This document shows positions 1,425-54,711 of a stretch of DNA of 64,000 nucleotides, piece by piece. The DNA is from an uncultured Pelagibacteraceae bacterium (GTDB lineage Bacteria; Pseudomonadota; Alphaproteobacteria; Pelagibacterales; Pelagibacteraceae). The stretch is from the NCBI GenBank assembly GCA_902518155.1, contig CABYFA010000001.1:7942-71941 (forward strand), given 5' to 3'. The number at the start of each line of letters is the position of its first letter. The stretch's first letter is position 1. Made by a program: the position numbers and the translations under genes. Under the pieces are notes generated by a model. That model was not told where the DNA came from. It ran no database searches and was given only the letters and a program-made list of their open reading frames with translations.

Positions 1425-1509
1425 TTATGCCTCTTCCTTGTTTATTTATATGTTTCAATTTTAAGATTAATTTGACCTATATGTAAAACAAAAAAATGAT
1501 CATTATCGT

Positions 1510-1528
1510 TACACAACTTTGAGTTGTG
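1510..1528. promoter_or_regulatory. Palindromic candidate operator in the divergent tauA/aminotransferase promoter
   Basis: CACAACT-TTG-AGTTGTG, perfect 7-bp inverted repeat at 1512-1528. Confidence 0.5.
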
Positions 1529-1599
1529 ACATTATTTTGGTGGTTAATTTAAGTTAATTAGTCTAAGGATTCATTTATTAAGTATTTTAAAATTTAATT

Positions 1600-2946
1600 A
1601 TGAGCTCAGAAAAAAGAACTTCAGTCCCTAATTCACTTAATGAACATTGGATGCCATTTACATCTAATAAGGATTTTAAAGAAAATCCAAAATTAATTGT
1701 TGAGGCAAAAGGTGTTTATTTAAAAAATCATCATGGCAAAACACAAATTGATGCAAGTTCAGGATTATTTTGTAATCCTTTAGGACATGGAAGAAAAGAA
1801 ATCATCGAGGCAATTACAAATCAATTAAATACTCTCGATTATTGTCAACCGTTTCAACAAGGTTTTGGTGGTTCATTTGAATTAGCAACAAGAATTTCAA
1901 AACACACACCCGGAAACTTAAATAAAATTTTTTATACGATATGTGGATCAACTGCAGTAGAAACTGCAATTAAGATTAGTATCGCTTACCATAAAGCAAG
2001 AGGTGAAGGTCAAAGATTTAGATTTGTTGGAAGAGAACGTGCTTATCATGGAATGAATATCGGAGCCACATCAGTCGGTGGTATGATCAATAACGTGAAA
2101 GCGTATGCAAGTGTATTGATGCCAGGTGTCGTTCATATGAGACATACACATTTAGATGAACATAAATTTATTTCAGGTCAGCCTGAAACAGGAGCCGAGA
2201 TCGCAAATGATCTAGAGAGAATTTGTACTAATTTTGGCTCTGAAAACATCGCAGCTTGTATTGTCGAACCTATCGCTGGTTCAACAGGAACATTGGTGCC
2301 ACCAGTTGGATACTTACAAAGATTAAGAGAACTTTGTGACAAACATAAAATACTTTTAATTTTTGATGAAGTTATTACGGGTTGGGGAAGAACTGGTTCA
2401 GCTTTTGGAGCTCAAGAATTTGGTGTAACACCTGACATAATGACAATGGCAAAAGCAACAACCAATGGAATAGTTCCTTTTGGTGTAGTTGCATGTAAAG
2501 AAGAAATTTATGATGCAGTGATGGATAATTCTCCAAAAGGTGCAATAGAATTATTTCATGGTTATACATACTCAGGAATTCCAGTTTCAGTAGCTGCAGC
2601 ATTAGCCGTTCAAGATATTTTTGAAAAAGAAGATATTTTTAATAGAGCAAAAGAACTTGCTCCTTATTTTCAAGAAGGTCTATTTTCCCTTAAAGATATT
2701 GATGTAGTAGATAACATAAGAGGTTATGGAATGATGGGTGGAATAGATATTAAAACTGATGGCAGACCTGGTAAAGCAGGTTTAGCTACTTTCAAACATT
2801 GTTACGATGCAGGAGTAAATTTCAAAGCGACTGGTGATTGTTTAATTATTGCACCAATGTTTATTTGTGAAAAAAAACACATTGATGAAATCATAGAAAA
2901 ACTAAGAACTGGAATTACTAATTACGCAAAGAGTAAAAAGAATTAA
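1600..2946 (+). CDS. Class III PLP aminotransferase, omega-amino acid (beta-alanine/taurine):pyruvate transaminase
   Basis: WMPFT..K.FK.NP N-terminus, IVEPIAGSTG, LIFDEVITGWGRTG, DIMTMAK (PLP lysine), HGYTYSG. Confidence 0.85.
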   Translation: MSSEKRTSVPNSLNEHWMPFTSNKDFKENPKLIVEAKGVYLKNHHGKTQIDASSGLFCNPLGHGRKEIIEAITNQLNTLDYCQPFQQGFGGSFELATRISKHTPGNLNKIFYTICGSTAVETAIKISIAYHKARGEGQRFRFVGRERAYHGMNIGATSVGGMINNVKAYASVLMPGVVHMRHTHLDEHKFISGQPETGAEIANDLERICTNFGSENIAACIVEPIAGSTGTLVPPVGYLQRLRELCDKHKILLIFDEVITGWGRTGSAFGAQEFGVTPDIMTMAKATTNGIVPFGVVACKEEIYDAVMDNSPKGAIELFHGYTYSGIPVSVAAALAVQDIFEKEDIFNRAKELAPYFQEGLFSLKDIDVVDNIRGYGMMGGIDIKTDGRPGKAGLATFKHCYDAGVNFKATGDCLIIAPMFICEKKHIDEIIEKLRTGITNYAKSKKN

Positions 2947-41321: not shown

Positions 41322-42776
41322 TTAAATTTTTTGGTCGTATTCACCAATTTTGCCTGTTTTTTGAAGTAAGGAATCTATAAATTTAAATATTTTTAACTTT
41401 CTTTCATCAGAAGTAGGACTTTCTGTTACAATCACTAAAGAAGGTTTATTAGAGGAGGCTCTAATCAAACCCCATGAGCCATCTTTAAATGAAAATCTGA
41501 CACCATTTACTGTTAAAATTTCATCAATTTCTTGGTCATCTATTTTAATTTTTTCTTTTTTAATTTTTTCAATATCTTTAACAATTTTATCGACCAAAGC
41601 ATATTTTTCCTCATCCTTGCAATAAGGAGCCATAGTAGGTGTTTGAAAAGTTTTTGGGATTTCTTTAATTATTTCATTCATTTTTTTGTTCTGATTATCC
41701 AATAAATGACAAACTTGGATCGCCGAATTGATACCATCGTCATACCCGTAACCCAAAGGTTGATTAAAAAAAAAGTGTCCACTTTTTTCAAATCCTGCTA
41801 AAGCTTTTTCATTGTTTACTTTTCTTTTGATATGTGAATGACCAGTTTTCCAATAAATTGTTTTACATTTATTAGAATTTAATAATTCATCATTCGCATA
41901 CAATCCTGTTGACTTTACATCCACTACAAAAACAGAATTTTTATATTTATTTGATAAACTTCTTGCAATTAATAATCCAATTTTATCTGAAAATATTTCA
42001 TTCCCTTCATTATCAATTACTCCTACTCTGTCACCATCACCATCAAATCCAAACCCGATATCGGCATTATTTTTTTTAACAGCATCAGAAATTGCATGTA
42101 ACATTTTTAAGTCTTCTGGATTAGGATTATATTTAGGGAAGGTCCAGTCTAAATTACAATCAAGTTCTATTACTTCACAACCAATTCCACGCAAAATATC
42201 AGGAGCAAAAATTCCTGCGGTTCCATTGCCACACGCTACTACTGCTTTAATTTTTTTTTTGATTTTATTGTTATCTATTAAACTTTGTTTATATATGTCT
42301 TGAAAATTTTCTATTTTTTTTTCCTGACCCTGTCCGTTTACAAAGTTTTCACTTAATGTTATTTCTTTTAATGCTCGCATTTCTTCAGGCGCATGTGTTA
42401 ATCCTTTCCTAATACCCATTTTTACACCCGTCCAACCATTGTCGTTATGACTTGCAGTTACCATTGCAACAGCATCAGAATTAAAATGGAATTGTGCAAA
42501 ATAAACCATCGGAGACAAAGACAAACCTACGTCTTCAACAAAACAACCTGTTGAAACTAAACCTTTTTTAAGTGCTGCTTTTATATCTTCACTATATGAT
42601 CGATAATCATGACCAACAATTACTTTTGGATTTGTTTTATTTGTTTGTTTTATAATTTGTGTACCTAGTCCTTTACCAAGATTCGTTATGCCTGGGAGAT
42701 TTATGTCTTTTTCATACAACCATCGAGCGTCATACTCTCTAAAACCATAGGGGTCGATTTTTAAATTTACGGACAT
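41322..42776 (-). CDS. Phosphomannomutase/phosphoglucomutase
   Basis: GFREYDAR, MVTASHN (phosphoserine), GFDGDGDR (metal loop), GFEKSGH, LIRASSN. Confidence 0.93.
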   Translation of the reverse strand: MSVNLKIDPYGFREYDARWLYEKDINLPGITNLGKGLGTQIIKQTNKTNPKVIVGHDYRSYSEDIKAALKKGLVSTGCFVEDVGLSLSPMVYFAQFHFNSDAVAMVTASHNDNGWTGVKMGIRKGLTHAPEEMRALKEITLSENFVNGQGQEKKIENFQDIYKQSLIDNNKIKKKIKAVVACGNGTAGIFAPDILRGIGCEVIELDCNLDWTFPKYNPNPEDLKMLHAISDAVKKNNADIGFGFDGDGDRVGVIDNEGNEIFSDKIGLLIARSLSNKYKNSVFVVDVKSTGLYANDELLNSNKCKTIYWKTGHSHIKRKVNNEKALAGFEKSGHFFFNQPLGYGYDDGINSAIQVCHLLDNQNKKMNEIIKEIPKTFQTPTMAPYCKDEEKYALVDKIVKDIEKIKKEKIKIDDQEIDEILTVNGVRFSFKDGSWGLIRASSNKPSLVIVTESPTSDERKLKIFKFIDSLLQKTGKIGEYDQKI

Positions 42777-46517: not shown

Positions 46518-47642
46518 TTATCTTTGATTTAATTGAACAACTTTTCTGTGTTGATTTCCTTTATAACTAGCTAGAGGCCTTATTAATTTATTGGCCGCGT
46601 GTTGTTCCATGATATGTGCTGACCACCCGGTAATTCTTGAGATGACAAAGATTGGTGTAAAAAAGTCCGTATCAAACCCCATCAAATGATATGTTGGTCC
46701 AGTTGGATAATCAACATTTGGATGTATATTTTTTCTGTCTATCATTACTTTTTCCACAATATCGTAAATTTTTTCAAATTTTTTATCTTTTTTGAGCTTT
46801 GCAACTTTTGCAAAATATTTTCTCATTGTTGGAACTCTTGAGTCCCCAGATTTGTAAACTCGATGACCAAATCCCATAACTACTTCTTTTTTATCTAGAG
46901 CATTATTAATCCATTTAAGAGCATTTTTTGGACTTTTTATTTTATTCATCATATGCATTACTTCCTCATTTGCACCACCATGAAGTGGACCTTTTAAACT
47001 TGCGATTGCACCAGTAATAGCCCCATGGATGTCCGATAAACTGCTGGTAATAGTTCTTGCAGTGAATGTTGATACGTTGAAACTATGCTCTGCATAAAGA
47101 ATTAAAGACACATCAAAAGCTTTTACAATTTCTTTTTGCGGAACTTTCCCAAAGCACATATAGAAAAAGTTTTCTGCTATGTTTAAATTTTTTTTAGGTT
47201 TAATAATATTTTTTCCTTTTCTTAATCTATAAAAAGCTGCTAGAGCAGTAGGAGTTTTAGCTAAAATTCTTATTGCTTTCCTCATATTTGCCTCTTGAGA
47301 AGAATCTGTTGTTTCTTTATCTTCAAGCCCCATTATACTCACAGCTGTTCTGGCGACATCCATCGGATGAGACTTCTTTGGCATTTTTTTAATAATTGAA
47401 TAAAGGTCTTTAGATAAATCTCTATTATTTTTTTCTTCTTTTTCAAACTTTCTTAATTCAATTGTATTTGGTAAATCTTTATTTAAAATTAGATAGGCTA
47501 CTTCTTCGAATCTACAATATTCACATAAATCTTGAGCAGCATATCCTCTATAGGTTAAAGAATTTATTTCAGGCATAACTTTAGAAACTTCTGTTTCATC
47601 AACAACTATTCCTAATAAACCTTTTTTAATATCATCACTCAT
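46518..47642 (-). CDS. prpC: 2-methylcitrate synthase
   Basis: LTYRGY, HSFNVSTF, KGPLHGGANE, GFGHRVY, PNVDY; clustered with prpB and prpD. Confidence 0.88.
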   Translation of the reverse strand: MSDDIKKGLLGIVVDETEVSKVMPEINSLTYRGYAAQDLCEYCRFEEVAYLILNKDLPNTIELRKFEKEEKNNRDLSKDLYSIIKKMPKKSHPMDVARTAVSIMGLEDKETTDSSQEANMRKAIRILAKTPTALAAFYRLRKGKNIIKPKKNLNIAENFFYMCFGKVPQKEIVKAFDVSLILYAEHSFNVSTFTARTITSSLSDIHGAITGAIASLKGPLHGGANEEVMHMMNKIKSPKNALKWINNALDKKEVVMGFGHRVYKSGDSRVPTMRKYFAKVAKLKKDKKFEKIYDIVEKVMIDRKNIHPNVDYPTGPTYHLMGFDTDFFTPIFVISRITGWSAHIMEQHAANKLIRPLASYKGNQHRKVVQLNQR

Positions 47643-48538
47643 TACTCATGTCCTTTAGTGCTAAAATTATAAATTTTTTCGTCCAAGCTATTATATTTTT
47701 CATAGTCAACAAGTTCATACAATCTTTTCCTAGTCTGCATTTTATCGATGATATTGTTTTGATGTCCATTTGCATAAATGTCTCGCAATCCATCTTCAAC
47801 ATTTTTCATAGCTAGTCTTTGGGTAGTAACTGGGTAGATTACGATATTGTAACCAAATTTTTCTAACTCTTTATAATTGAATAATTTTGATTTACCAAAT
47901 TCAGTCATATTAGCTAGCAAATAACATGATAATTCTTTTCTAACTTTTTCAAAATCTTTCTCATCTTTCAAAGCTTCTGGAAAAATTATCTCTGCACCGG
48001 CTTCAGCATAAGCTTTGCATCTTTCTATCATTTTATCAATTCCTTCTACGCTCTTTGCATCCGATCTAGCTATAATTTTAAAGTTTTGATCTTTTTTTGC
48101 TGATACACATTCTTTAATTTTTTTAATCATTGCATCTGTTGATATGAGTTCTTTATTGTCAAGATGCCCACATCTTTTTCTCTCAATTTGATCCTCTAAA
48201 TGAACTGCAGTGATTCCTAATTCCTCAAAAGTTTCAATAGTTTCTTTACAAGATTTAAAACCAGTATCAATATCAACGATAGTTGGAAGATTAGTTACTC
48301 TTGAAATAAGGTATGATCTTGTACTTACATCTTGAAGAGTAGTTAACCCAATGTCAGGAAATCCCAAGTCATTAGCCATAACTCCACCTGAAACATAAAC
48401 TGCGTCGTATCCAATTTCCTCAATTAACTTCGCGGTCAAAGGGTTGTATGCACCAGGAACTCTTAAAATTTTACCAGATTTTAATTTATCAACAAAATCT
48501 TTTCTTTTTTGAACTGGTTCTTTTTCTATAAAGTGCAT
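47642..48538 (-). CDS. prpB: Methylisocitrate lyase
   Basis: YVSGG, PDIGLTT, DIDTGF, LEDQ..RKRCGHL, ARSDA, ANMTEFGK. Confidence 0.93.
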   Translation of the reverse strand: MHFIEKEPVQKRKDFVDKLKSGKILRVPGAYNPLTAKLIEEIGYDAVYVSGGVMANDLGFPDIGLTTLQDVSTRSYLISRVTNLPTIVDIDTGFKSCKETIETFEELGITAVHLEDQIERKRCGHLDNKELISTDAMIKKIKECVSAKKDQNFKIIARSDAKSVEGIDKMIERCKAYAEAGAEIIFPEALKDEKDFEKVRKELSCYLLANMTEFGKSKLFNYKELEKFGYNIVIYPVTTQRLAMKNVEDGLRDIYANGHQNNIIDKMQTRKRLYELVDYEKYNSLDEKIYNFSTKGHE

Positions 48539-50040
48539 TAAAAAATACCTTTTTTAAAATTTCTTTTTATTTTACTCTTTTTGACTTCAATATTTAACTT
48601 ATCAAGTTGACCTGGTTTTAATTTTTTTAAATTTTGTACTATTTTTAAAAATCTATCACTTTCTTTTTTATCTAAGATATTTTCAGTTAAAGTTAAGAAT
48701 TTGTTAATATAATTTCGTCTTTTGAAAGGACGTGAACCATAAGGATGTGCATCTGCTACACCTTGTTCCTCAGTAATTTTTTTACCATTATTGAGAGTTA
48801 TTACTACTTTTGCACCAAATGCTTTTTTTCTTGGGTTTGGATCATGGTATTTTTTGGTCCATTTTTTATCTTCATGAGTTTTTATCGATCTCCAAATCTT
48901 AATTGTGCTCTTTCTTTTAGCTCTTGCTTTTGTGTAGGATTTTACGTGATGCCAAGTGCCATCCTCAAGTGCAACTGCAAATATATACATTATCGAGTGA
49001 TCTAATGTTTCTCTACTAGCATTAGGATCCATTTTTTGTGGATCGTTTGCACCTGTTCCGATTACATAATGAGTGTGGTGACTTGTAAAAATATCTATTT
49101 TTTTGATCTGGTTGAGATTTTGAACTTTCTTTTTAAGTTTTTTTGCTAAATCTATTAAAGCTTGAGATTGATATTCAGCAGAATATTCTTTTGTATAAGT
49201 TTCAAGTATTGCTTTTTTTGTTTCTCCTTTTTTTGGTAAGGGGACTTTGTACAATGCTTTCTTTCCATCAAGTATTCTTGCTATCACACTATCTTCACCT
49301 TCATAAATTGGACTTGGTGCTCCTTCACCACGCATTACTCTATCAACAGCTTCTATAGCAAGCTTACCGGCATGTGCTGGAGCATAGGCTTTCCAGCTTG
49401 AAATTTCACCTTTTCTTGATTGTCTAGTTGAAATTGTTGTATGTAATGCTTGTTGAACAGCTTGATAAATAGTTTCAGTGTTTAATCTTAACATTGAGCC
49501 AATCCCAGCAGCTACACTAGGACCAAGATGTGCTATATGATCTACTTTATGTTTATGCAAACATATTCCTTTAACTAGATTAACCTGGACTTCATAAGCT
49601 GTAATTATTCCTCTCAAAAGATCTAAACCACTTTTTTTATTCTGCTGAGCAACACTTATTAGTGGTGGAATATTATCTCCTGGGTGACTGTAATCGGCCG
49701 CTAAAAAAGTATCATGAAAATCTAATTCTCTGACAGCAGTTCCGTTAGACCATGCTGCCCATTCGCAATCAAATTTTAATTTACTATCAACACCGAATAA
49801 TGTTGCACCATTATTTCTTGAATGTTTTAGAGCCATTTCTCTTGAAGAAATAACCGATCTTCTATTTAGGGATGCTATCGCAACAGAAGCATTGTCTATT
49901 ATTCTATTAATTGACATTTCAACAGCATCTTTATTTAACTTTACATTATCATTTGCAATTTCTGCAATTTTCCATGCAAGCTGATTTTTTTTTGGTAAAT
50001 GAATTTTAGATGGGTAAACTTTAATTTTATGAACTATCAA
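48538..50040 (-). CDS. prpD: 2-methylcitrate dehydratase (MmgE/PrpD)
   Basis: [32 protein letters not shown]. Confidence 0.92.
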
Positions 50041-50094: not shown

Positions 50095-50778
50095 TTAAAG
50101 ATATTTTGATACTATTTTTTCGATACCAATAAAGTCTTTTACTAAGTGATTATGGTAAATTTCATTCGTTTTTTTTTCAGTATATCCATCTTCCATTAAG
50201 ATTACAGGTATCCCAGCATCTTTTGCTGCATTTGCGTCAGTTTCACTATCTCCAATCATTAATGATTTTTTAATATCACCTTGTAATATTTCAATTACAG
50301 AGGTTAGGTGTCTTGGATCAGGTTTACAATAATTAAATGTATTGTGTCCAGCAATGTATTCAAAAAAATCATAAATCCCAATTTTTTTTAAAAGATCAAC
50401 AGCTAGGTAATCAGTTTTGTTGGTACAAACAGCCATAGAAATACTATTTTTTTTTGACCAAACTAGAAAATCTTTGACACCATTTATTAGGGTACTTTCA
50501 TTTACAATGTTTTTTCCATAAAAGTCAGTAAAATCTTTTATCATCTCTTTTTTAACCTTTTCGTTTTGCACTTTTCCAAACTCCTTTTTAGCTTGCCCCC
50601 AAATAGACCTACCAAGCATTGCACCTGCACCTTGACCAACAAGATTTCTTATTTCCTCAGTAGACTTAGTGGGATAACCAAATTTTTTCATAACATGATT
50701 ATGTGCACGCATTAGATCTGGAGCTGTGTCAACTAGAGTTCCATCTAAATCAAAAAGAATTGTAAATTTTTGCTTCAT
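50095..50778 (-). CDS. gph: HAD-family phosphatase (phosphoglycolate phosphatase-like)
   Basis: LFDLDGTLVDT, VCTNK, KPDP, MIGDSETD. Confidence 0.85.
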   Translation of the reverse strand: MKQKFTILFDLDGTLVDTAPDLMRAHNHVMKKFGYPTKSTEEIRNLVGQGAGAMLGRSIWGQAKKEFGKVQNEKVKKEMIKDFTDFYGKNIVNESTLINGVKDFLVWSKKNSISMAVCTNKTDYLAVDLLKKIGIYDFFEYIAGHNTFNYCKPDPRHLTSVIEILQGDIKKSLMIGDSETDANAAKDAGIPVILMEDGYTEKKTNEIYHNHLVKDFIGIEKIVSKYL

Positions 50779-50849
50779 AACTAAAAGTTTTATTAAGAAA
50801 TATTTTGTGAATTAAGAAACATATATACTTAATATAAAGAATTTAACAG

Positions 50850-51473
50850 ATGAAACAATTAAATTTACAAAAGCATCAAATTAATCTTAGAAAAAAATTT
50901 TTAAAAGTGGGTGTTAAAATGATTGGTCCTGAAACAATTTTTTTTTCAAAAGACACTAAGATAGGCAAGAATGTGGTTATCGAACCTTATGTAGTAATAG
51001 GCCAAAAAGTGAAAATAGGAAATAATGTTACAATAAAATCATTTTCACATTTAGAAAATTGTAAAATTGAAAATAAAGTTGATATCGGCCCCTATGCCAG
51101 AATAAGACCTGGTGCAGTTCTAAAAAATGGTTCAAAAGTTGGAAATTTTGTTGAAATTAAAAAAAGTACTTTGGGTATAAATTCAAAAGTAAACCACTTA
51201 ACATATATCGGTGATAGTGAAATTGGTAAATCAGTCAATATTGGTGCTGGAACAATCACCTGTAACTATGATGGAGTTAAAAAAAGTAAAACTAAAATTA
51301 AAGACAATGTATTTATTGGTTCAAATTCATCATTAATAGCACCAATAACAATTGAAGAAGGTAGTGTTGTTGGGGCTGGTTCTGTTATAACAAAAAATGT
51401 AAAGAAAAAATCGTTAGCATTAACGAGAAGTTTGCAGACTGAAATTAAAAATTATAAAAGAAAGTCAAAATAG
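50850..51473 (+). CDS. glmU: GlmU acetyltransferase (left-handed beta-helix) domain only; N-terminal uridyltransferase absent
   Basis: GVKMIGPETIFF, GPYARIRPG, GNFVEIK, NHLTYIGD, GAGTITCNYDG, FIGSNS; 207 aa; upstream of glmS. Confidence 0.88.
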   Translation: MKQLNLQKHQINLRKKFLKVGVKMIGPETIFFSKDTKIGKNVVIEPYVVIGQKVKIGNNVTIKSFSHLENCKIENKVDIGPYARIRPGAVLKNGSKVGNFVEIKKSTLGINSKVNHLTYIGDSEIGKSVNIGAGTITCNYDGVKKSKTKIKDNVFIGSNSSLIAPITIEEGSVVGAGSVITKNVKKKSLALTRSLQTEIKNYKRKSK

Positions 51474-51475
51474 TT

Positions 51476-53296
51476 ATGTGTGGAATAATTGGAATTAACA
51501 GTAATAAACCTGTATCAGCAACTATAATTAATTCTCTTAAAAAATTAGAGTATAGAGGTTATGACTCTGCTGGCATGGCAACTCTCTATAATGGATTGAT
51601 AAACGAAGTAAAATCTGAGGGAAGAGTAGAAAATTTGGAAAAAAATTCTTTAGTTCAAAACATGGAGGGAACTATTGGTATTGGTCATGTTCGATGGGCA
51701 ACACACGGACTTCCTAATAGTATTAATGCTCATCCGCATTCTTCCCAGAATGTTTCTGTTGTTCATAACGGAATTATTGAAAATTCTACAATATTAAAAA
51801 AATTTTTAATTGGAAAAGGTCACAAATTTAAATCTCAAACAGATACAGAGGTAATAGTCCATTTAATTACTGAAAATCTTAAAACAGAAAATATTGTTAA
51901 TTCAATTCAAAAAACTTTGAAGTCATTACATGGAAGCTTTGCATTGGGTATTATATTTAAAGATCAACCAGATTTAATTGTTGGTGCAAGAAGAGGTTCA
52001 CCATTAGCGGTTGGTTATGGTCCTAACGAAAATTATCTGGGTTCAGACTCCTATGCGCTTAAATCTATGACAAATAAGATTACATATTTAAATGATGGTG
52101 AATTCTGCATTATTAAAAAAGATCACGTTGAATTTTTTAGTGAGGAAGGAATTAAAATTAATAAAAAAGTTTTAGAATTATCCTCTACAGAGGAGAAATA
52201 TGACAAAGGTGATTACAAACATTTTATGGCTAAAGAAATTGAAGAACAGCCAAACACAATTAGAAATGGAATTAATGAGTATATAGATATGTCTAATAAA
52301 GATATTAATATTTATAATTTTCCTTGGAAAAGTGATGAGATTACATCAATAACCTTGATTGGATGTGGAACAGCATATCATTCATGTTTAATGGCAAAAT
52401 ATTGGTTTGAGGAAATAACATCATTAGATGTGAATATTGATATAGCATCGGAATTTAGATACAGAAAAAATAGATTTAAAAAAGACACACTTTATGTATT
52501 CGTCTCTCAATCTGGGGAAACAGCAGATACTTATGCTGCTTTAAATCTTTGTAAACAGAATGGTGTTAAAACTTGTGCTGTCGTAAACGTAGTAGAAAGT
52601 TCAATTGCAAGAGACTCTGAATTTGTATTACCAATACATTGTGGAACCGAAATAGGCGTTGCTTCAACTAAAGCTTTTCTTGGACAAATATTGATTTTAT
52701 ATATTCTAGCCTTAAAGCTTTCTTTATTGAGAAAAGATATTGAAAAGAATCATTTTGACAAAAAAATTGATGACCTTAAAAATTTACCAAAACTAGTTGA
52801 GCAAACATTATTGATTGATAATAAGATACAAACAATTTCAAATACTTTTAATGATGCAAAGGGTTCTATGTTTTTGGGACGTGGTTTTTCTTATCCAATT
52901 GCTCTTGAAGGTGCATTAAAACTTAAAGAATTGTCATACATTCATGCAGAGGGGTATCCTGCAGGAGAGATGAAACATGGACCTTTAGCATTAATAGAGG
53001 AGGGTATGCCGGTTGTAGTTTTGGCTCCAAGAGATAATTATTATAAAAAAACGATTTCAAATATGCAGGAGGTAATTGCAAGGGGAGCTAAAGTTTTATT
53101 AATTACGAATAAAAGTAAAGATGAGGTAATTTCAGAAAATATTTGGGAGAAAATCGAAGTTGAAAGTACTAATGAGGATCTACTACCTTTTCTTTTGACT
53201 ATTCCTTTGCAAAAATTAGCTTATTATTCAGCGTTAAAAAAAGGTTATGACATTGATAAACCTAGAAATTTAGCAAAGTCAGTAACCGTTGAATAA
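51476..53296 (+). CDS. glmS: Glutamine-fructose-6-phosphate aminotransferase
   Basis: MCGII, LEYRGYDSAG, GHVRWATHG, SQSGETAD, ELSYIHAEG, PRNLAKSVTVE. Confidence 0.97.
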   Translation: MCGIIGINSNKPVSATIINSLKKLEYRGYDSAGMATLYNGLINEVKSEGRVENLEKNSLVQNMEGTIGIGHVRWATHGLPNSINAHPHSSQNVSVVHNGIIENSTILKKFLIGKGHKFKSQTDTEVIVHLITENLKTENIVNSIQKTLKSLHGSFALGIIFKDQPDLIVGARRGSPLAVGYGPNENYLGSDSYALKSMTNKITYLNDGEFCIIKKDHVEFFSEEGIKINKKVLELSSTEEKYDKGDYKHFMAKEIEEQPNTIRNGINEYIDMSNKDINIYNFPWKSDEITSITLIGCGTAYHSCLMAKYWFEEITSLDVNIDIASEFRYRKNRFKKDTLYVFVSQSGETADTYAALNLCKQNGVKTCAVVNVVESSIARDSEFVLPIHCGTEIGVASTKAFLGQILILYILALKLSLLRKDIEKNHFDKKIDDLKNLPKLVEQTLLIDNKIQTISNTFNDAKGSMFLGRGFSYPIALEGALKLKELSYIHAEGYPAGEMKHGPLALIEEGMPVVVLAPRDNYYKKTISNMQEVIARGAKVLLITNKSKDEVISENIWEKIEVESTNEDLLPFLLTIPLQKLAYYSALKKGYDIDKPRNLAKSVTVE

Positions 53297-53325: not shown

Positions 53326-54711
53326 TTGAAAATGAAAAATTGGAAAGTAAATAGCTGGAGAAAATATCCGGTAAAACATATTCCGGATTATCCGGATAAA
53401 AAAGAATTGGATCAAGTTTTGAATAAAATCAAAACCTTTCCACCTTTGGTTTTTGCTGGAGAAACAAGACATTTGAAACAACAACTTGCTGAAGTTGTGG
53501 ATGGAAAAGCCTTTTTATTACAAGGTGGAGATTGTGCAGAAAGTTTTGCAGAATTTCATCCAGATAACATTAGAGATACATTTAAAGTTATTCTTCAAAT
53601 GTCATTAGTTTTAACTTATTCAGCATCTTTACCGGTTGTTAAACTTGGAAGGATAGCTGGTCAGTTTTCAAAACCAAGAAGTGCCCCCACTGAGATACAG
53701 GGTGGCAAAGAATTACCAAGTTATTTAGGTGACAATATAAATGCTATTGATTTTACAGAAAAAGCAAGAAGACCAGATCCAAAAAGGATGTTTAAAGCTT
53801 ATTCACAATCTGCTTCAACCTTAAATATTTTACGAGCTTTTTCTAAAGGAGGTTTTGCGGATTTAAATAAAGTCCATTTATGGAATTTAGATTATATCAA
53901 GAAAAGTCCTCAAGCTAAAAAATTTAAAGAACTAGAGGATAAAATAGCTGATGCTTTAGCATTCATGGAAGCTTGTGGAATAACTTCAGATTTTAATAAT
54001 AGACTATACACAGTTAATTTTTGGACTTCACATGAGGCTTTACATTTACCTTTTGAAGAAAGTATGACTAGAATTGACTCCACTACTGGAGAATATCATG
54101 ATACCTCAGCTCATTTTGTTTGGATTGGAGACAGAACAAGACAGATTGATGGGGGTCATGTAGAATTTTGTAAAGGTATTGAAAACCCTATTGGAATAAA
54201 ATGTGGGCCAACCTCAAAGCCAGATGAAATTGCAAAAATTTGTGAATTGATTAATCCTAATAACGAAAAAGGTAAAGTTACATTAATATCCAGATTTGGT
54301 CATAAAAATGTTGAGAAATTTTTACCAAAATTAATTAGAGGTATTAAAAAAGAAGGTTTAAATGTGGTTTGGTCATGTGATCCAATGCATGGAAATACAA
54401 TTAAATCAACGACAGGTTTTAAAACGAGACCTTTTAACGATGTTGTTAGTGAGGTTAAAAATGTATTTGCTGTTCATCAGTCCGAAGGTTCTTACGCTGG
54501 TGGTTTGCATGTTGAAATGACTGGACAAGATGTGACAGAGTGTACAGGGGGTGCAAGAAAAATATCTGATGCTGATTTATCTAGTAGATATCACACTCAT
54601 TGTGATCCTCGATTAAACTCAGATCAAGCAATTGAATTAGCGTTTTTAATTTCTGATGAGATTAAAAAGAATAGCAGCTATTCAAAAAATGCTATTCAAG
54701 CGGCATCTTAG
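53326..54711 (+). CDS. Class II DAHP synthase
   Basis: LLQGGDCAESF, GRIAGQFSKPRS, WTSHEAL, WIGDRTRQ, CDPMHGNT, HTHCDPRLN. Confidence 0.95.
   Translation: MKMKNWKVNSWRKYPVKHIPDYPDKKELDQVLNKIKTFPPLVFAGETRHLKQQLAEVVDGKAFLLQGGDCAESFAEFHPDNIRDTFKVILQMSLVLTYSASLPVVKLGRIAGQFSKPRSAPTEIQGGKELPSYLGDNINAIDFTEKARRPDPKRMFKAYSQSASTLNILRAFSKGGFADLNKVHLWNLDYIKKSPQAKKFKELEDKIADALAFMEACGITSDFNNRLYTVNFWTSHEALHLPFEESMTRIDSTTGEYHDTSAHFVWIGDRTRQIDGGHVEFCKGIENPIGIKCGPTSKPDEIAKICELINPNNEKGKVTLISRFGHKNVEKFLPKLIRGIKKEGLNVVWSCDPMHGNTIKSTTGFKTRPFNDVVSEVKNVFAVHQSEGSYAGGLHVEMTGQDVTECTGGARKISDADLSSRYHTHCDPRLNSDQAIELAFLISDEIKKNSSYSKNAIQAAS

What the first reader, a model, noticed from the sequence alone, without database searches (positions are those of the whole stretch)
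50850..51473. GlmU reduced to its acetyltransferase half; the uridyltransferase is missing in situ
The ORF starts at the linker helix before the beta-helix (...LRKKFLKVGVKMIGPETIFF) and is 207 aa. Only 71 bp separate it from the divergent gph, so no N-terminal remnant or frameshifted half fits (seen). Bacterial GlmU is normally bifunctional, and UDP-GlcNAc is essential for peptidoglycan and LPS (established). A separate, possibly non-orthologous GlcNAc-1-P uridyltransferase must therefore exist: a split pathway.
Basis: partly seen in the sequence, partly recalled or inferred. Interest (0 to 1): 0.55.

Follow-up and report, generated by a model that had tools for sequence, protein, structure and literature searches.

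The report
SAR11 GlmU lacking its uridyltransferase half
In most SAR11 marine bacteria the normally two-part cell-wall enzyme GlmU survives only as its acetyltransferase half, so another, still unidentified enzyme must perform the last step in making the essential building block UDP-GlcNAc.

Summary
Window 50850-51473 (+) encodes a 207-aa protein matching only the C-terminal acetyltransferase half of GlmU. All acetyltransferase residues checked are kept and dN/dS is about 0.1. It lies 71 bp from a divergent HAD phosphatase gene and 2 bp upstream of glmS.

It is neither a pseudogene nor an assembly artefact. Every genus in a 61-genome Pelagibacteraceae sample in which GlmU was found has this half-gene, complete genomes included, except two. 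Those two (one holds IMCC9063, subclade IIIa) keep a full-length glmU in the same gene order, so the N-terminal domain was deleted in place.

On an RpoB tree the truncated lineages are not one clade (p-AU 3.8e-11). The deletion either recurred or spread by recombination.

GlmS, GlmM and MurA are present, so a uridyltransferase is still needed. No second glmU, no stand-alone GlmU N-half and no GalT-type enzyme was found. No NagU/UAP-type enzyme was found either, but that search had no positive control. The only core candidates are a MurU-like enzyme next to amgK (favoured, about 40%) and a GalU-like enzyme; sequence could not separate them.

A June 2026 preprint describes C-terminal-only GlmU paired with NagU in other phyla. 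First-stage readers of this scan noted the same half-gene in at least seven other genomes.

The parts
50850..51473 (+). glmU' : stand-alone GlcN-1-P N-acetyltransferase. It comprises about two thirds of the GlmU linker helix, the left-handed beta-helix and the C-terminal arm (207 aa plus stop).
   Evidence: Searches show the match to the C-half only. One search aligns it to solved GlmU structures at E 1e-52. Residues equivalent to R333, E349, K351, H363, Y366, N377, N386, K392 and S405 are kept as R86, E102, K104, H116, Y119, N130, N139, K145 and S158. One search gives dN/dS of 0.08-0.18.
50779..50849 (.). 71-bp divergent intergenic region between the HAD phosphatase gene and glmU'. This is where the N-terminal domain's codons lie in full-length relatives.
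   Evidence: Searches give the coordinates. One search finds no tblastn homology to GlmU residues 1-243 here. Searches show the same gene order with a 431-439-aa glmU in genera g12 and g17.
50095..50778 (-). HAD-family phosphatase (227 aa), gph-like. It may be the MurNAc-6-P phosphatase MupP of the AnmK-MupP-AmgK-MurU recycling route.
   Evidence: One search finds HAD_2. One search gives a phosphoglycolate phosphatase model at 165 bits (cut-off 225) and the MupP model at 75.6 bits. In Caulobacter the assigned MupP (CCNA_02390) carries the locus tag next to GlmU's (CCNA_02389) (PMC13046382). The function was not tested.
51476..53296 (+). glmS (606 aa), glutamine--fructose-6-P aminotransferase. 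It starts 2 bp after the glmU' stop.
   Evidence: One search gives the ORF. One search finds GATase plus two SIS domains. The gene is conserved next to glmU or glmU' in all loci examined.

Best explanation
The 207-aa protein is a functional, monofunctional glucosamine-1-phosphate N-acetyltransferase. It arose by in-place deletion of the roughly 230 codons that encode the GlmU uridyltransferase domain. The gene keeps part of the helical arm, the whole left-handed beta-helix and the C-terminal arm, which are the parts that form the acetyl-CoA and GlcN-1-P site in GlmU trimers. The inferred pathway runs GlmS, then GlmM, then this protein, giving GlcNAc-1-P. A separate enzyme then adds UMP. The most likely partner is the core MurU-like minimal nucleotidyltransferase encoded beside amgK (G000 contig C12:1321-2007, outside the window). 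On this reading it acts on both MurNAc-1-P (recycling) and GlcNAc-1-P (de novo synthesis). Such a pre-existing second uridyltransferase in the family's ancestor would have made the GlmU N-domain redundant. That would explain why its loss is found in lineages that are not each other's closest relatives. Shown here: domain content, residue conservation, purifying selection, synteny, distribution, and the absence of a second GlmU, of a stand-alone N-half and of a GalT-type enzyme; a NagU-type enzyme was not found, in a search that had no positive control. Inferred: acetyltransferase activity, the need for a partner, and above all the partner's identity.
For: The match covers the C-half only and all acetyltransferase residues checked are kept. 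dN/dS is 0.08-0.18. Engineered E. coli C-domain constructs of 222-231 aa have solved structures (4AA7, 3TWD) and begin at about the same helix position. The half-gene occurs in every sampled Pelagibacteraceae genus in which GlmU was found except g12 and g17, including complete genomes. The full-length genes sit in identical synteny and have an intact uridyltransferase motif set. GlmM and MurA are present. No second glmU or N-half was found. PF00483 finds only three proteins in the complete genome G036: ManC-like, GalU-like and MurU-like. No GalT-type enzyme was found, in a search whose control rang. No PF01704/NagU was found. No further G-x-G-T-R-[LMI] protein exists in G000. The MurU-like gene is core in all 61 genomes and lies in a tsaE-amgK-murU cluster in G000. 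Its best solved relative is P. putida MurU, and the archaeal GlcNAc-1-P/Glc-1-P nucleotidyltransferase ST0452 is also among the hits. Two glycines that are 80% and 100% conserved in 15 other alphaproteobacterial MurU-like proteins (consensus G-Y-x-G-x-G-D) are Asp and Leu/Phe/Met in all 29 SAR11 sequences. Truncated lineages are polyphyletic on RpoB.
Against: No assay exists, and sequence analysis did not separate MurU-like from GalU-like. Both are core in truncated and in full-length lineages. A scan for sites that changed in all truncated lineages gave two sites in each protein. From memory, not verified here, P. putida MurU was reported as specific for MurNAc-1-P. AnmK, AmgK and a MupP-like gene are all kept, so ordinary recycling alone could explain why MurU is retained. 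The remodelled loop is shared by g12 and g17, which still have full GlmU, and it could reflect AT-driven drift. The PF01704 search never had a positive control.
Confidence: 0.55

Rival explanations
1. The GalU-like protein (G000 C1:136602-137414, 271 aa) supplies the uridyltransferase. It could accept GlcNAc-1-P directly. Or the order could be reversed: GlcN-1-P is uridylylated to UDP-GlcN, which the stand-alone LbH protein then acetylates.
For: It is core in all genomes at least 90% complete. It is one of only three PF00483 proteins in the complete genome G036. It is a UTP-dependent sugar-1-P uridylyltransferase by family (TIGR01099, 254 bits over the whole model). From memory, E. coli GlmU acetylates UDP-GlcN weakly.
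Against: It is well conserved (52-85% identity across the family) and aligns over the full GalU model, so nothing suggests a change of substrate. From general knowledge, the 2-N-acetyl group is bulkier than the glucose 2-OH that GalU enzymes bind. The residues of GlmU' that bind the GlcN-1-P phosphate are unchanged, which fits the normal order of steps.
Confidence: 0.2
2. A uridyltransferase that is not homologous to these, or is too divergent to recognise, does the step. This includes a NagU/UAP-like enzyme that the searches missed.
For: The PF01704 search rang in no control genome and in none of 251 Pseudomonadota, so its sensitivity is unvalidated. A precedent exists: NagU went unrecognised in S. 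aureus for 30 years (bioRxiv 10.64898/2026.06.23.733835).
Against: A motif scan of all G000 ORFs of at least 90 aa finds no further G-x-G-T-R-[LMI] protein. The complete 1.06-Mb genome of G036 leaves little unassigned coding space. GalT-type exchange is excluded by a search whose control rang.
Confidence: 0.2
3. The LbH protein no longer works in UDP-GlcNAc synthesis. It would be a decaying remnant or an acetyltransferase with a new acceptor, and the cell would obtain UDP-GlcNAc by some other route.
For: Its score is below the curated GlmU cut-offs. NCBI names some copies only 'DapH/DapD/GlmU-related protein'.
Against: All nine catalytic and substrate-binding residues examined are kept. dN/dS is about 0.1. 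Identity across the family is 62-85%. Linkage to glmS is strict. The low score simply reflects the missing half of the model.
Confidence: 0.04

Closest known systems
Bifunctional GlmU (TIGR01173 / NF010933; E. coli and H. influenzae structures 1HV9, 2V0H)
   Same: The C-terminal helical arm, left-handed beta-helix and C-terminal arm are shared. All acetyltransferase residues examined are conserved and the local match reaches E 1e-52. The gene sits next to glmS, as in many Alphaproteobacteria sampled here.
   Different: The whole N-terminal uridyltransferase domain (about 230 aa, L-x2-G-x-G-T-x-M motif) is absent. Scores fall below the curated cut-offs.
C-terminal-only GlmU paired with the eukaryote-like uridyltransferase NagU (Fong et al., bioRxiv 10.64898/2026.06.23.733835; PVC superphylum)
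   Same: The architecture is the same: a stand-alone GlmU acetyltransferase domain, with the uridyltransfer step done by a different protein.
   Different: No NagU/PF01704 homologue was found in G000, in five complete SAR11 genomes or in 251 Pseudomonadota genomes (no positive control). A word search of that preprint found neither 'Alphaproteobacteria' nor 'MurU'; its figures and supplements were not examined. The partner here is unknown.
Engineered E. coli GlmU C-terminal domain (PDB 4AA7, 231 aa; 3TWD, 222 aa)
   Same: The size and start point within the linker helix are the same. From memory (Pompeo et al. 2001, not checked here), such fragments keep acetyltransferase activity if they trimerise.
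   Different: Those are laboratory constructs. This is a natural gene under purifying selection.
AmgK-MurU anabolic MurNAc recycling shunt (Pseudomonas, PMC5371407; Caulobacter, PMC13046382)
   Same: G000 has tsaE-amgK-murU-like genes, AnmK and a MupP-like HAD gene next to glmU'. According to PMC5371407, MurU was originally found by its similarity to the GlmU transferase domain.
   Different: The SAR11 protein scores 112 bits against the MurU model (cut-off 250). No sampled alphaproteobacterium or control genome, Caulobacter included, reaches that cut-off either (best 191 bits). Its sugar-side loops are remodelled. A role in de novo UDP-GlcNAc synthesis is a hypothesis only.
Naturally split GlmU in another alphaproteobacterium (genome G129)
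   Same: It has a 207-aa stand-alone C-half in the interior of a 90-kb contig.
   Different: G129 also encodes a 409-aa protein carrying the GlmU N-domain at another locus. SAR11 has no such partner.

Membership tests
Bifunctional GlmU (TIGR01173 / NF010933) | N-terminal nucleotidyltransferase domain with the L-x2-G-x-G-T-x-M-x4-P-K signature | tested here: not met
   HMM matches start at model position 237-242. There is no upstream remnant, and the gap to the neighbouring gene is 71 bp.
Bifunctional GlmU (TIGR01173 / NF010933) | C-terminal LbH acetyltransferase domain with the catalytic His and the GlcN-1-P and acetyl-CoA binding residues | tested here: met
   R86, E102, K104, H116, Y119, N130, N139, K145 and S158 align with R333, E349, K351, H363, Y366, N377, N386, K392 and S405 of the H. 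influenzae enzyme, which shares E. coli numbering.
Bifunctional GlmU (TIGR01173 / NF010933) | Whole-protein score above the curated cut-off | tested here: not met
   301.6 bits against 505, and 249.2 against 366.85.
Stand-alone GlmU acetyltransferase with NagU partner (Fong et al. 2026) | Only the C-terminal GlmU domain is encoded and no full-length glmU exists in the genome | tested here: met
   the latter covering complete genomes of the same genus.
Stand-alone GlmU acetyltransferase with NagU partner (Fong et al. 2026) | A NagU/UAP-type (PF01704) uridyltransferase in the same genome | tested here: inconclusive
   None was found in G000, in five complete SAR11 genomes or in 251 Pseudomonadota, but the control genomes never rang. 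A motif scan of G000 ORFs was also negative.
Hexapeptide-repeat (LbH) acyltransferases (PF00132) | Tandem hexapeptide repeats | tested here: met
   PF00132 at E 1.3e-30 with three stretches.
MurU (candidate partner, G000 C12:1321-2007) | Minimal NTP-transferase encoded next to the anomeric kinase AmgK | tested here: met
   The amgK-like (312 aa) and murU-like (229 aa) genes overlap by 4 nt, and the best family hits are AmgK and MurU. In genera g4 and g14 the two genes are not adjacent.
MurU (candidate partner, G000 C12:1321-2007) | Score above the curated MurU cut-off | tested here: not met
   111.9 bits against 250. No sampled alphaproteobacterium or control genome, Caulobacter included, reaches the cut-off either (best 191 bits), so this says little.
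MurU (candidate partner, G000 C12:1321-2007) | Uridylyltransfer to MurNAc-alpha-1-P, and, for the hypothesis, to GlcNAc-alpha-1-P | not testable with these tools
   This needs an enzyme assay.

The most novel reading that the evidence does not exclude
In SAR11 a 'recycling' enzyme, the MurU-like nucleotidyltransferase, is a dual-specificity GlcNAc-1-P/MurNAc-1-P uridylyltransferase that carries all de novo UDP-GlcNAc synthesis. Its broadened specificity arose in the family's ancestor and made the GlmU N-domain redundant. The domain was then deleted repeatedly, or deleted once and spread by recombination, in the most abundant bacteria of the ocean. This would be a third solution for the last step of UDP-GlcNAc synthesis, after GlmU and NagU.
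Probability: 0.4. Interest if true: 0.75.

Novelty: new variant of a known kind. Interest (0 to 1): 0.6.

Why it matters
GlmU has long been treated as the universal, essential bifunctional enzyme of bacterial UDP-GlcNAc synthesis and as an antibiotic target. Only in 2026 was an alternative uridyltransferase (NagU) shown. SAR11, among the most abundant bacteria in the ocean, lacks the GlmU uridyltransferase domain and, as far as could be tested, NagU as well. An essential step of cell-wall and lipid A precursor synthesis therefore has no assigned enzyme in these organisms.

The problem is now narrow and testable. Two small core proteins are the candidates, and natural controls exist in genera g12 and g17 (subclade IIIa, IMCC9063), which keep the full-length enzyme.

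Public annotation is also affected. These 207-aa proteins are widely labelled 'UDP-N-acetylglucosamine pyrophosphorylase', an activity whose domain they lack. Metabolic models that rely on the name will hide the gap.

The polyphyletic distribution of the deletion is a clear example of domain-level genome streamlining.

Tried and rejected
1. A second glmU or a stand-alone GlmU N-half was sought and not found. The 190-200-aa ORFs that match GlmU positions 4-138 in some SAR11 genomes are MobA/MocA-like NTP_transf_3 proteins. They lie next to a GNAT gene and MsrPQ-like genes (read by eye from the translations), are sporadic, and also occur in full-length genera.

2. The 226-aa NTP-transferase at G000 C2:24134 is accessory, not core.

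3. NagU/UAP (PF01704) was not found, but the search had no positive control. GalT-type exchange (PF01087) was absent in a search whose control rang.

4. I scanned for sites where all truncated lineages differ from the full-length lineages and outgroups. MurU gave two sites (74, 135), GalU two and AmgK one, so the scan does not discriminate.

5. I looked for complementary decay, meaning murU broken only where GlmU is full-length. G054 (g17) has single frameshifts in amgK and murU. However, G039, which has a truncated GlmU, also has a murU frameshift. All are single indels in otherwise conserved genes and are probably sequencing errors.

6. The apparent split GlmU in G143 is a gene broken across two contig ends.

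7. Full-text searches for GlmU with SAR11 or Pelagibacter returned nothing on the subject. The MurU structure paper (PMC4409245) is not held, so the MurNAc-binding residues could not be mapped.

8. I tested a single origin of the truncated allele. It is rejected on RpoB and on GlmS but not on the 208-column GlmU-C tree (p-AU 0.28). One deletion spread by recombination therefore remains possible.

Full report
OBSERVATION. The ORF at window 50850-51473 (+) is real: 207 aa with an ATG start. It matches the alphaproteobacterial GlmU model NF010933 only over positions 242-435 of 453 (E 8e-90). It matches TIGR01173 only over positions 237-450 of 452, and both scores are below the curated cut-offs. 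Pfam sees hexapeptide repeats only. The divergent HAD phosphatase gene (50095-50778, minus strand) begins 71 bp upstream, and glmS (51476-53296) begins 2 bp after the stop. tblastn with full-length SAR11 GlmU proteins finds homology here only from residue 244 onward. There is no frameshifted or eroded N-terminal half in place.

WHAT THE PROTEIN IS. Phmmer against solved structures gives GlmU chains at E 1e-52 to 1e-50. Counting along the printed alignment with the H. influenzae enzyme, which shares E. coli numbering, gives these equivalences: R333, E349, K351, H363, Y366, N377, N386, K392 and S405 correspond to R86, E102, K104, H116, Y119, N130, N139, K145 and S158. All are conserved. The N-terminus (…INLRKKFLKVGVKMIGPET) aligns with the long helical arm that links the two GlmU domains. 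The engineered E. coli C-domain constructs with solved structures (4AA7, 231 aa; 3TWD, 222 aa) start at about the same place. Between species of the same genus dN/dS is 0.08-0.18, with dS near saturation. This is a selected, complete acetyltransferase domain and not a remnant. From memory (Pompeo et al. 2001, not checked here), such fragments of E. coli GlmU retain acetyltransferase activity provided they trimerise.

ORIGIN AND DISTRIBUTION. The window lies in a 1.14-Mb, 30-contig, 29%-GC genome that is 91.8% complete. Public copies of the protein are named as from Candidatus Pelagibacter.

In 61 Pelagibacteraceae genomes, every genus in which GlmU was found has only the C-half, as an ORF of 195-247 aa, except g12 and g17. 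This includes complete single-contig genomes of g1 and g14. Genera g12 and g17 have a 431-439-aa glmU. An identical GlmS sequence places IMCC9063 (subclade IIIa; 1,284,727 bp, the length of G037's contig) in g17. The full-length genes lie in the same HAD phosphatase–glmU–glmS order. They keep the uridyltransferase signature residues (LAAGKGTRM, PKV, QLGTGHA, YGD, and the Asn169 and Asn227 equivalents). The half-gene therefore arose by in-place deletion of about 690 bp.

An RpoB tree splits the family into two clades. Clade A (g1, g9, g13, g4, g2, g8, g5) is entirely truncated. Clade B holds truncated g14 and g10/g6 together with full-length g12 and g17. Holding the truncated lineages together as one clade is rejected (delta lnL 105.6, p-AU 3.8e-11). 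GalU, MurU, AmgK and GlmS gene trees also place g10, g14 and g15 with g12 and g17.

The C-halves of the full-length genes fall inside the Pelagibacteraceae clade (SH-aLRT 99). Their N-domains are 53% identical between g12 and g17 but only 29-37% identical to outgroups. The full-length genes are therefore native, and regain from outside the family is unlikely.

The retained 5' boundary differs between lineages. Homology starts at about residue 200 in g14 (G036). It starts at about 217 in g10/g6, with an in-frame stop above the present start. It starts at 231-244 in clade A and at 243-253 in g15.

The gene's own short tree does not reject a single origin of the truncated allele (p-AU 0.28), whereas the adjacent glmS does (p 2e-5). 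Two scenarios remain: at least three independent deletions, or one deletion spread by homologous recombination, possibly followed by erosion. Either way, loss of the domain is tolerated across the family.

Elsewhere in Alphaproteobacteria (150 families sampled) full-length GlmU is the rule. One real split exists: G129 has a 207-aa C-half and, at another locus, a 409-aa protein with the N-domain. The apparent split in G143 is a contig break. G092 is an unpublished genome. It enters only the tallies, and no claim here rests on it.

THE MISSING STEP. GlmS, GlmM (G000 C6:70170-71084, cut off by the contig end) and MurA are present. LbH matches at C2:124089 and C2:124745, read as LpxD/LpxA but not checked, are also present. 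GlcN-1-P is therefore made and UDP-GlcNAc is required.

G000 has six proteins with the G-x-G-T-R-[LMI] nucleotidyltransferase signature:
- GalU-like (271 aa)
- ManC-like (402 aa)
- RfbF-like
- a CBS-domain NTP-transferase
- an accessory 226-aa protein
- MurU-like (229 aa)

KdsB, IspDF and a NeuA-like protein are the PF12804 members. In the complete 1.06-Mb genome G036 (g14, truncated GlmU), PF00483 finds only ManC-like, GalU-like and MurU-like proteins.

A GalT-type UDP-hexose exchange enzyme is absent in a search whose control rang. PF01704, the NagU/UAP family, was not found in G000, in five complete SAR11 genomes or in 251 Pseudomonadota, but no control ever rang. The 190-200-aa ORFs that resemble the GlmU N-terminus in some genomes are MobA-like. 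They are sporadic and also occur in full-length genera.

CANDIDATES. The MurU-like gene is core in all 61 genomes at 38-64% identity. In G000 it forms a tsaE–amgK–murU cluster. AmgK is also core and AnmK is present in G000. The HAD gene beside glmU' may be MupP, because in Caulobacter the assigned MupP carries the locus tag next to GlmU's (PMC13046382).

According to PMC5371407, MurU was discovered through its similarity to the GlmU transferase domain. The best solved relative of the SAR11 protein is P. putida MurU, and the archaeal dual GlcNAc-1-P/Glc-1-P enzyme ST0452 is among the hits.

I compared the SAR11 proteins with 15 other alphaproteobacterial MurU-like proteins. All 29 SAR11 sequences replace two glycines of a G-Y-x-G-x-G-D loop, which are 80% and 100% conserved in the outgroups, with Asp and Leu/Phe/Met. 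They also lose an R-R pair and the G-R-L and H-D-G motifs. I read this, speculatively, as a narrower sugar pocket. AT-driven drift is an equally simple explanation, and g12 and g17 share the changes.

The GalU-like protein is also core and more conservative (52-85% identity; 254 bits over the whole GalU model). It could act on GlcNAc-1-P, or on GlcN-1-P followed by acetylation of UDP-GlcN.

A scan for sites changed in all truncated lineages but kept in full-length lineages and outgroups gave two sites in each protein, so it does not discriminate. Frameshifts in murU and amgK of G054, and in murU of G039, look like sequencing errors.

My estimates are MurU-like about 0.4, GalU-like about 0.2, something else about 0.2. 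The remainder is uncertainty about the scheme itself.

COMPARISON WITH WHAT IS KNOWN. Fong et al. (bioRxiv 10.64898/2026.06.23.733835, June 2026) show that S. aureus relies on the eukaryote-like uridyltransferase NagU. They also report that many NagU-bearing bacteria, notably in the PVC superphylum, encode only the C-terminal GlmU domain. A stand-alone GlmU acetyltransferase with a separate uridyltransferase is therefore a described kind.

The SAR11 case differs in three ways:
- No NagU was found.
- The case lies in Alphaproteobacteria and covers a whole, hugely abundant family.
- Lineages with the intact gene are nested among the truncated ones.

Full-text searches found no paper on GlmU in SAR11 or Pelagibacter. 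First-stage readers of this scan noted the same half-gene in at least seven other genomes, without follow-up.

VERDICT. This is a new variant of a recently described kind. The open question, namely which enzyme uridylylates GlcNAc-1-P in SAR11, is now narrowed to two small proteins and can be tested directly.

Noticed in passing
window 50095-50778 (-): The 'gph' next to glmU' may be the MurNAc-6-P phosphatase MupP rather than phosphoglycolate phosphatase. In Caulobacter the assigned MupP (CCNA_02390) carries the locus tag next to GlmU's (CCNA_02389). Here the phosphoglycolate phosphatase model scores 165 bits (below its 225 cut-off) and the MupP model 75.6 bits.
   Followed up: partly
L033 (G037 = IMCC9063), glmU at about 1489-2810 (-): The full-length glmU of this finished subclade IIIa genome is split into 81-aa and 366-aa ORFs. 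The cause is a 1-nt deletion next to an A9 run, judged against G017. It is either a homopolymer sequencing error or a real inactivation of the uridyltransferase domain.
   Followed up: partly
glmS trees versus RpoB trees: The GlmS tree conflicts with the RpoB tree. The glmS of g1, g8 and g10 groups with g12, g15 and g17, away from g2, g4, g5 and g9. This suggests recombination within the family at the glmU-glmS locus.
   Followed up: partly
L153:1165-1785 (+) and L154:1012-2238 (+) (genome G129): Another alphaproteobacterial family has a truly split GlmU. A 207-aa C-half lies at one locus and a 409-aa protein with the N-domain (GlmU residues 14-313) lies at another.
   Followed up: partly
L036:1759-2355 (+) (G050): A 198-aa MobA/MocA-like NTP_transf_3 protein lies next to a GNAT gene and MsrP/MsrQ-like genes (neighbours read by eye from the translations). 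It is present in some SAR11 genomes and was not detected in G000, G023 or G041.
   Followed up: partly
L202 (G054) and L203 (G039): There are single frameshifts in amgK and murU of G054 and in murU of G039. The coding sequence is otherwise well conserved, so these are probably assembly or sequencing indels.
   Followed up: yes
window 41556-42683 (-): A PMM/PGM-family paralogue (487-aa open frame) gives a weak match to the GlmM model (E 3e-43). It is distinct from the true GlmM on contig C6.
   Followed up: no
G006 (g7) and G020 (g2): No GlmU match of any kind was found at E <= 1e-10 in these two genomes (88% and 92% complete). Assembly gaps are the likely reason, but this was not checked.
   Followed up: no
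window 47642-50040 (-): By eye, the two genes upstream look like methylisocitrate lyase (PrpB-like, 298 aa) and 2-methylcitrate dehydratase (PrpD-like, 500 aa). A class II DAHP synthase-like ORF follows glmS at 53326-54711. None of these was tested.
   Followed up: no
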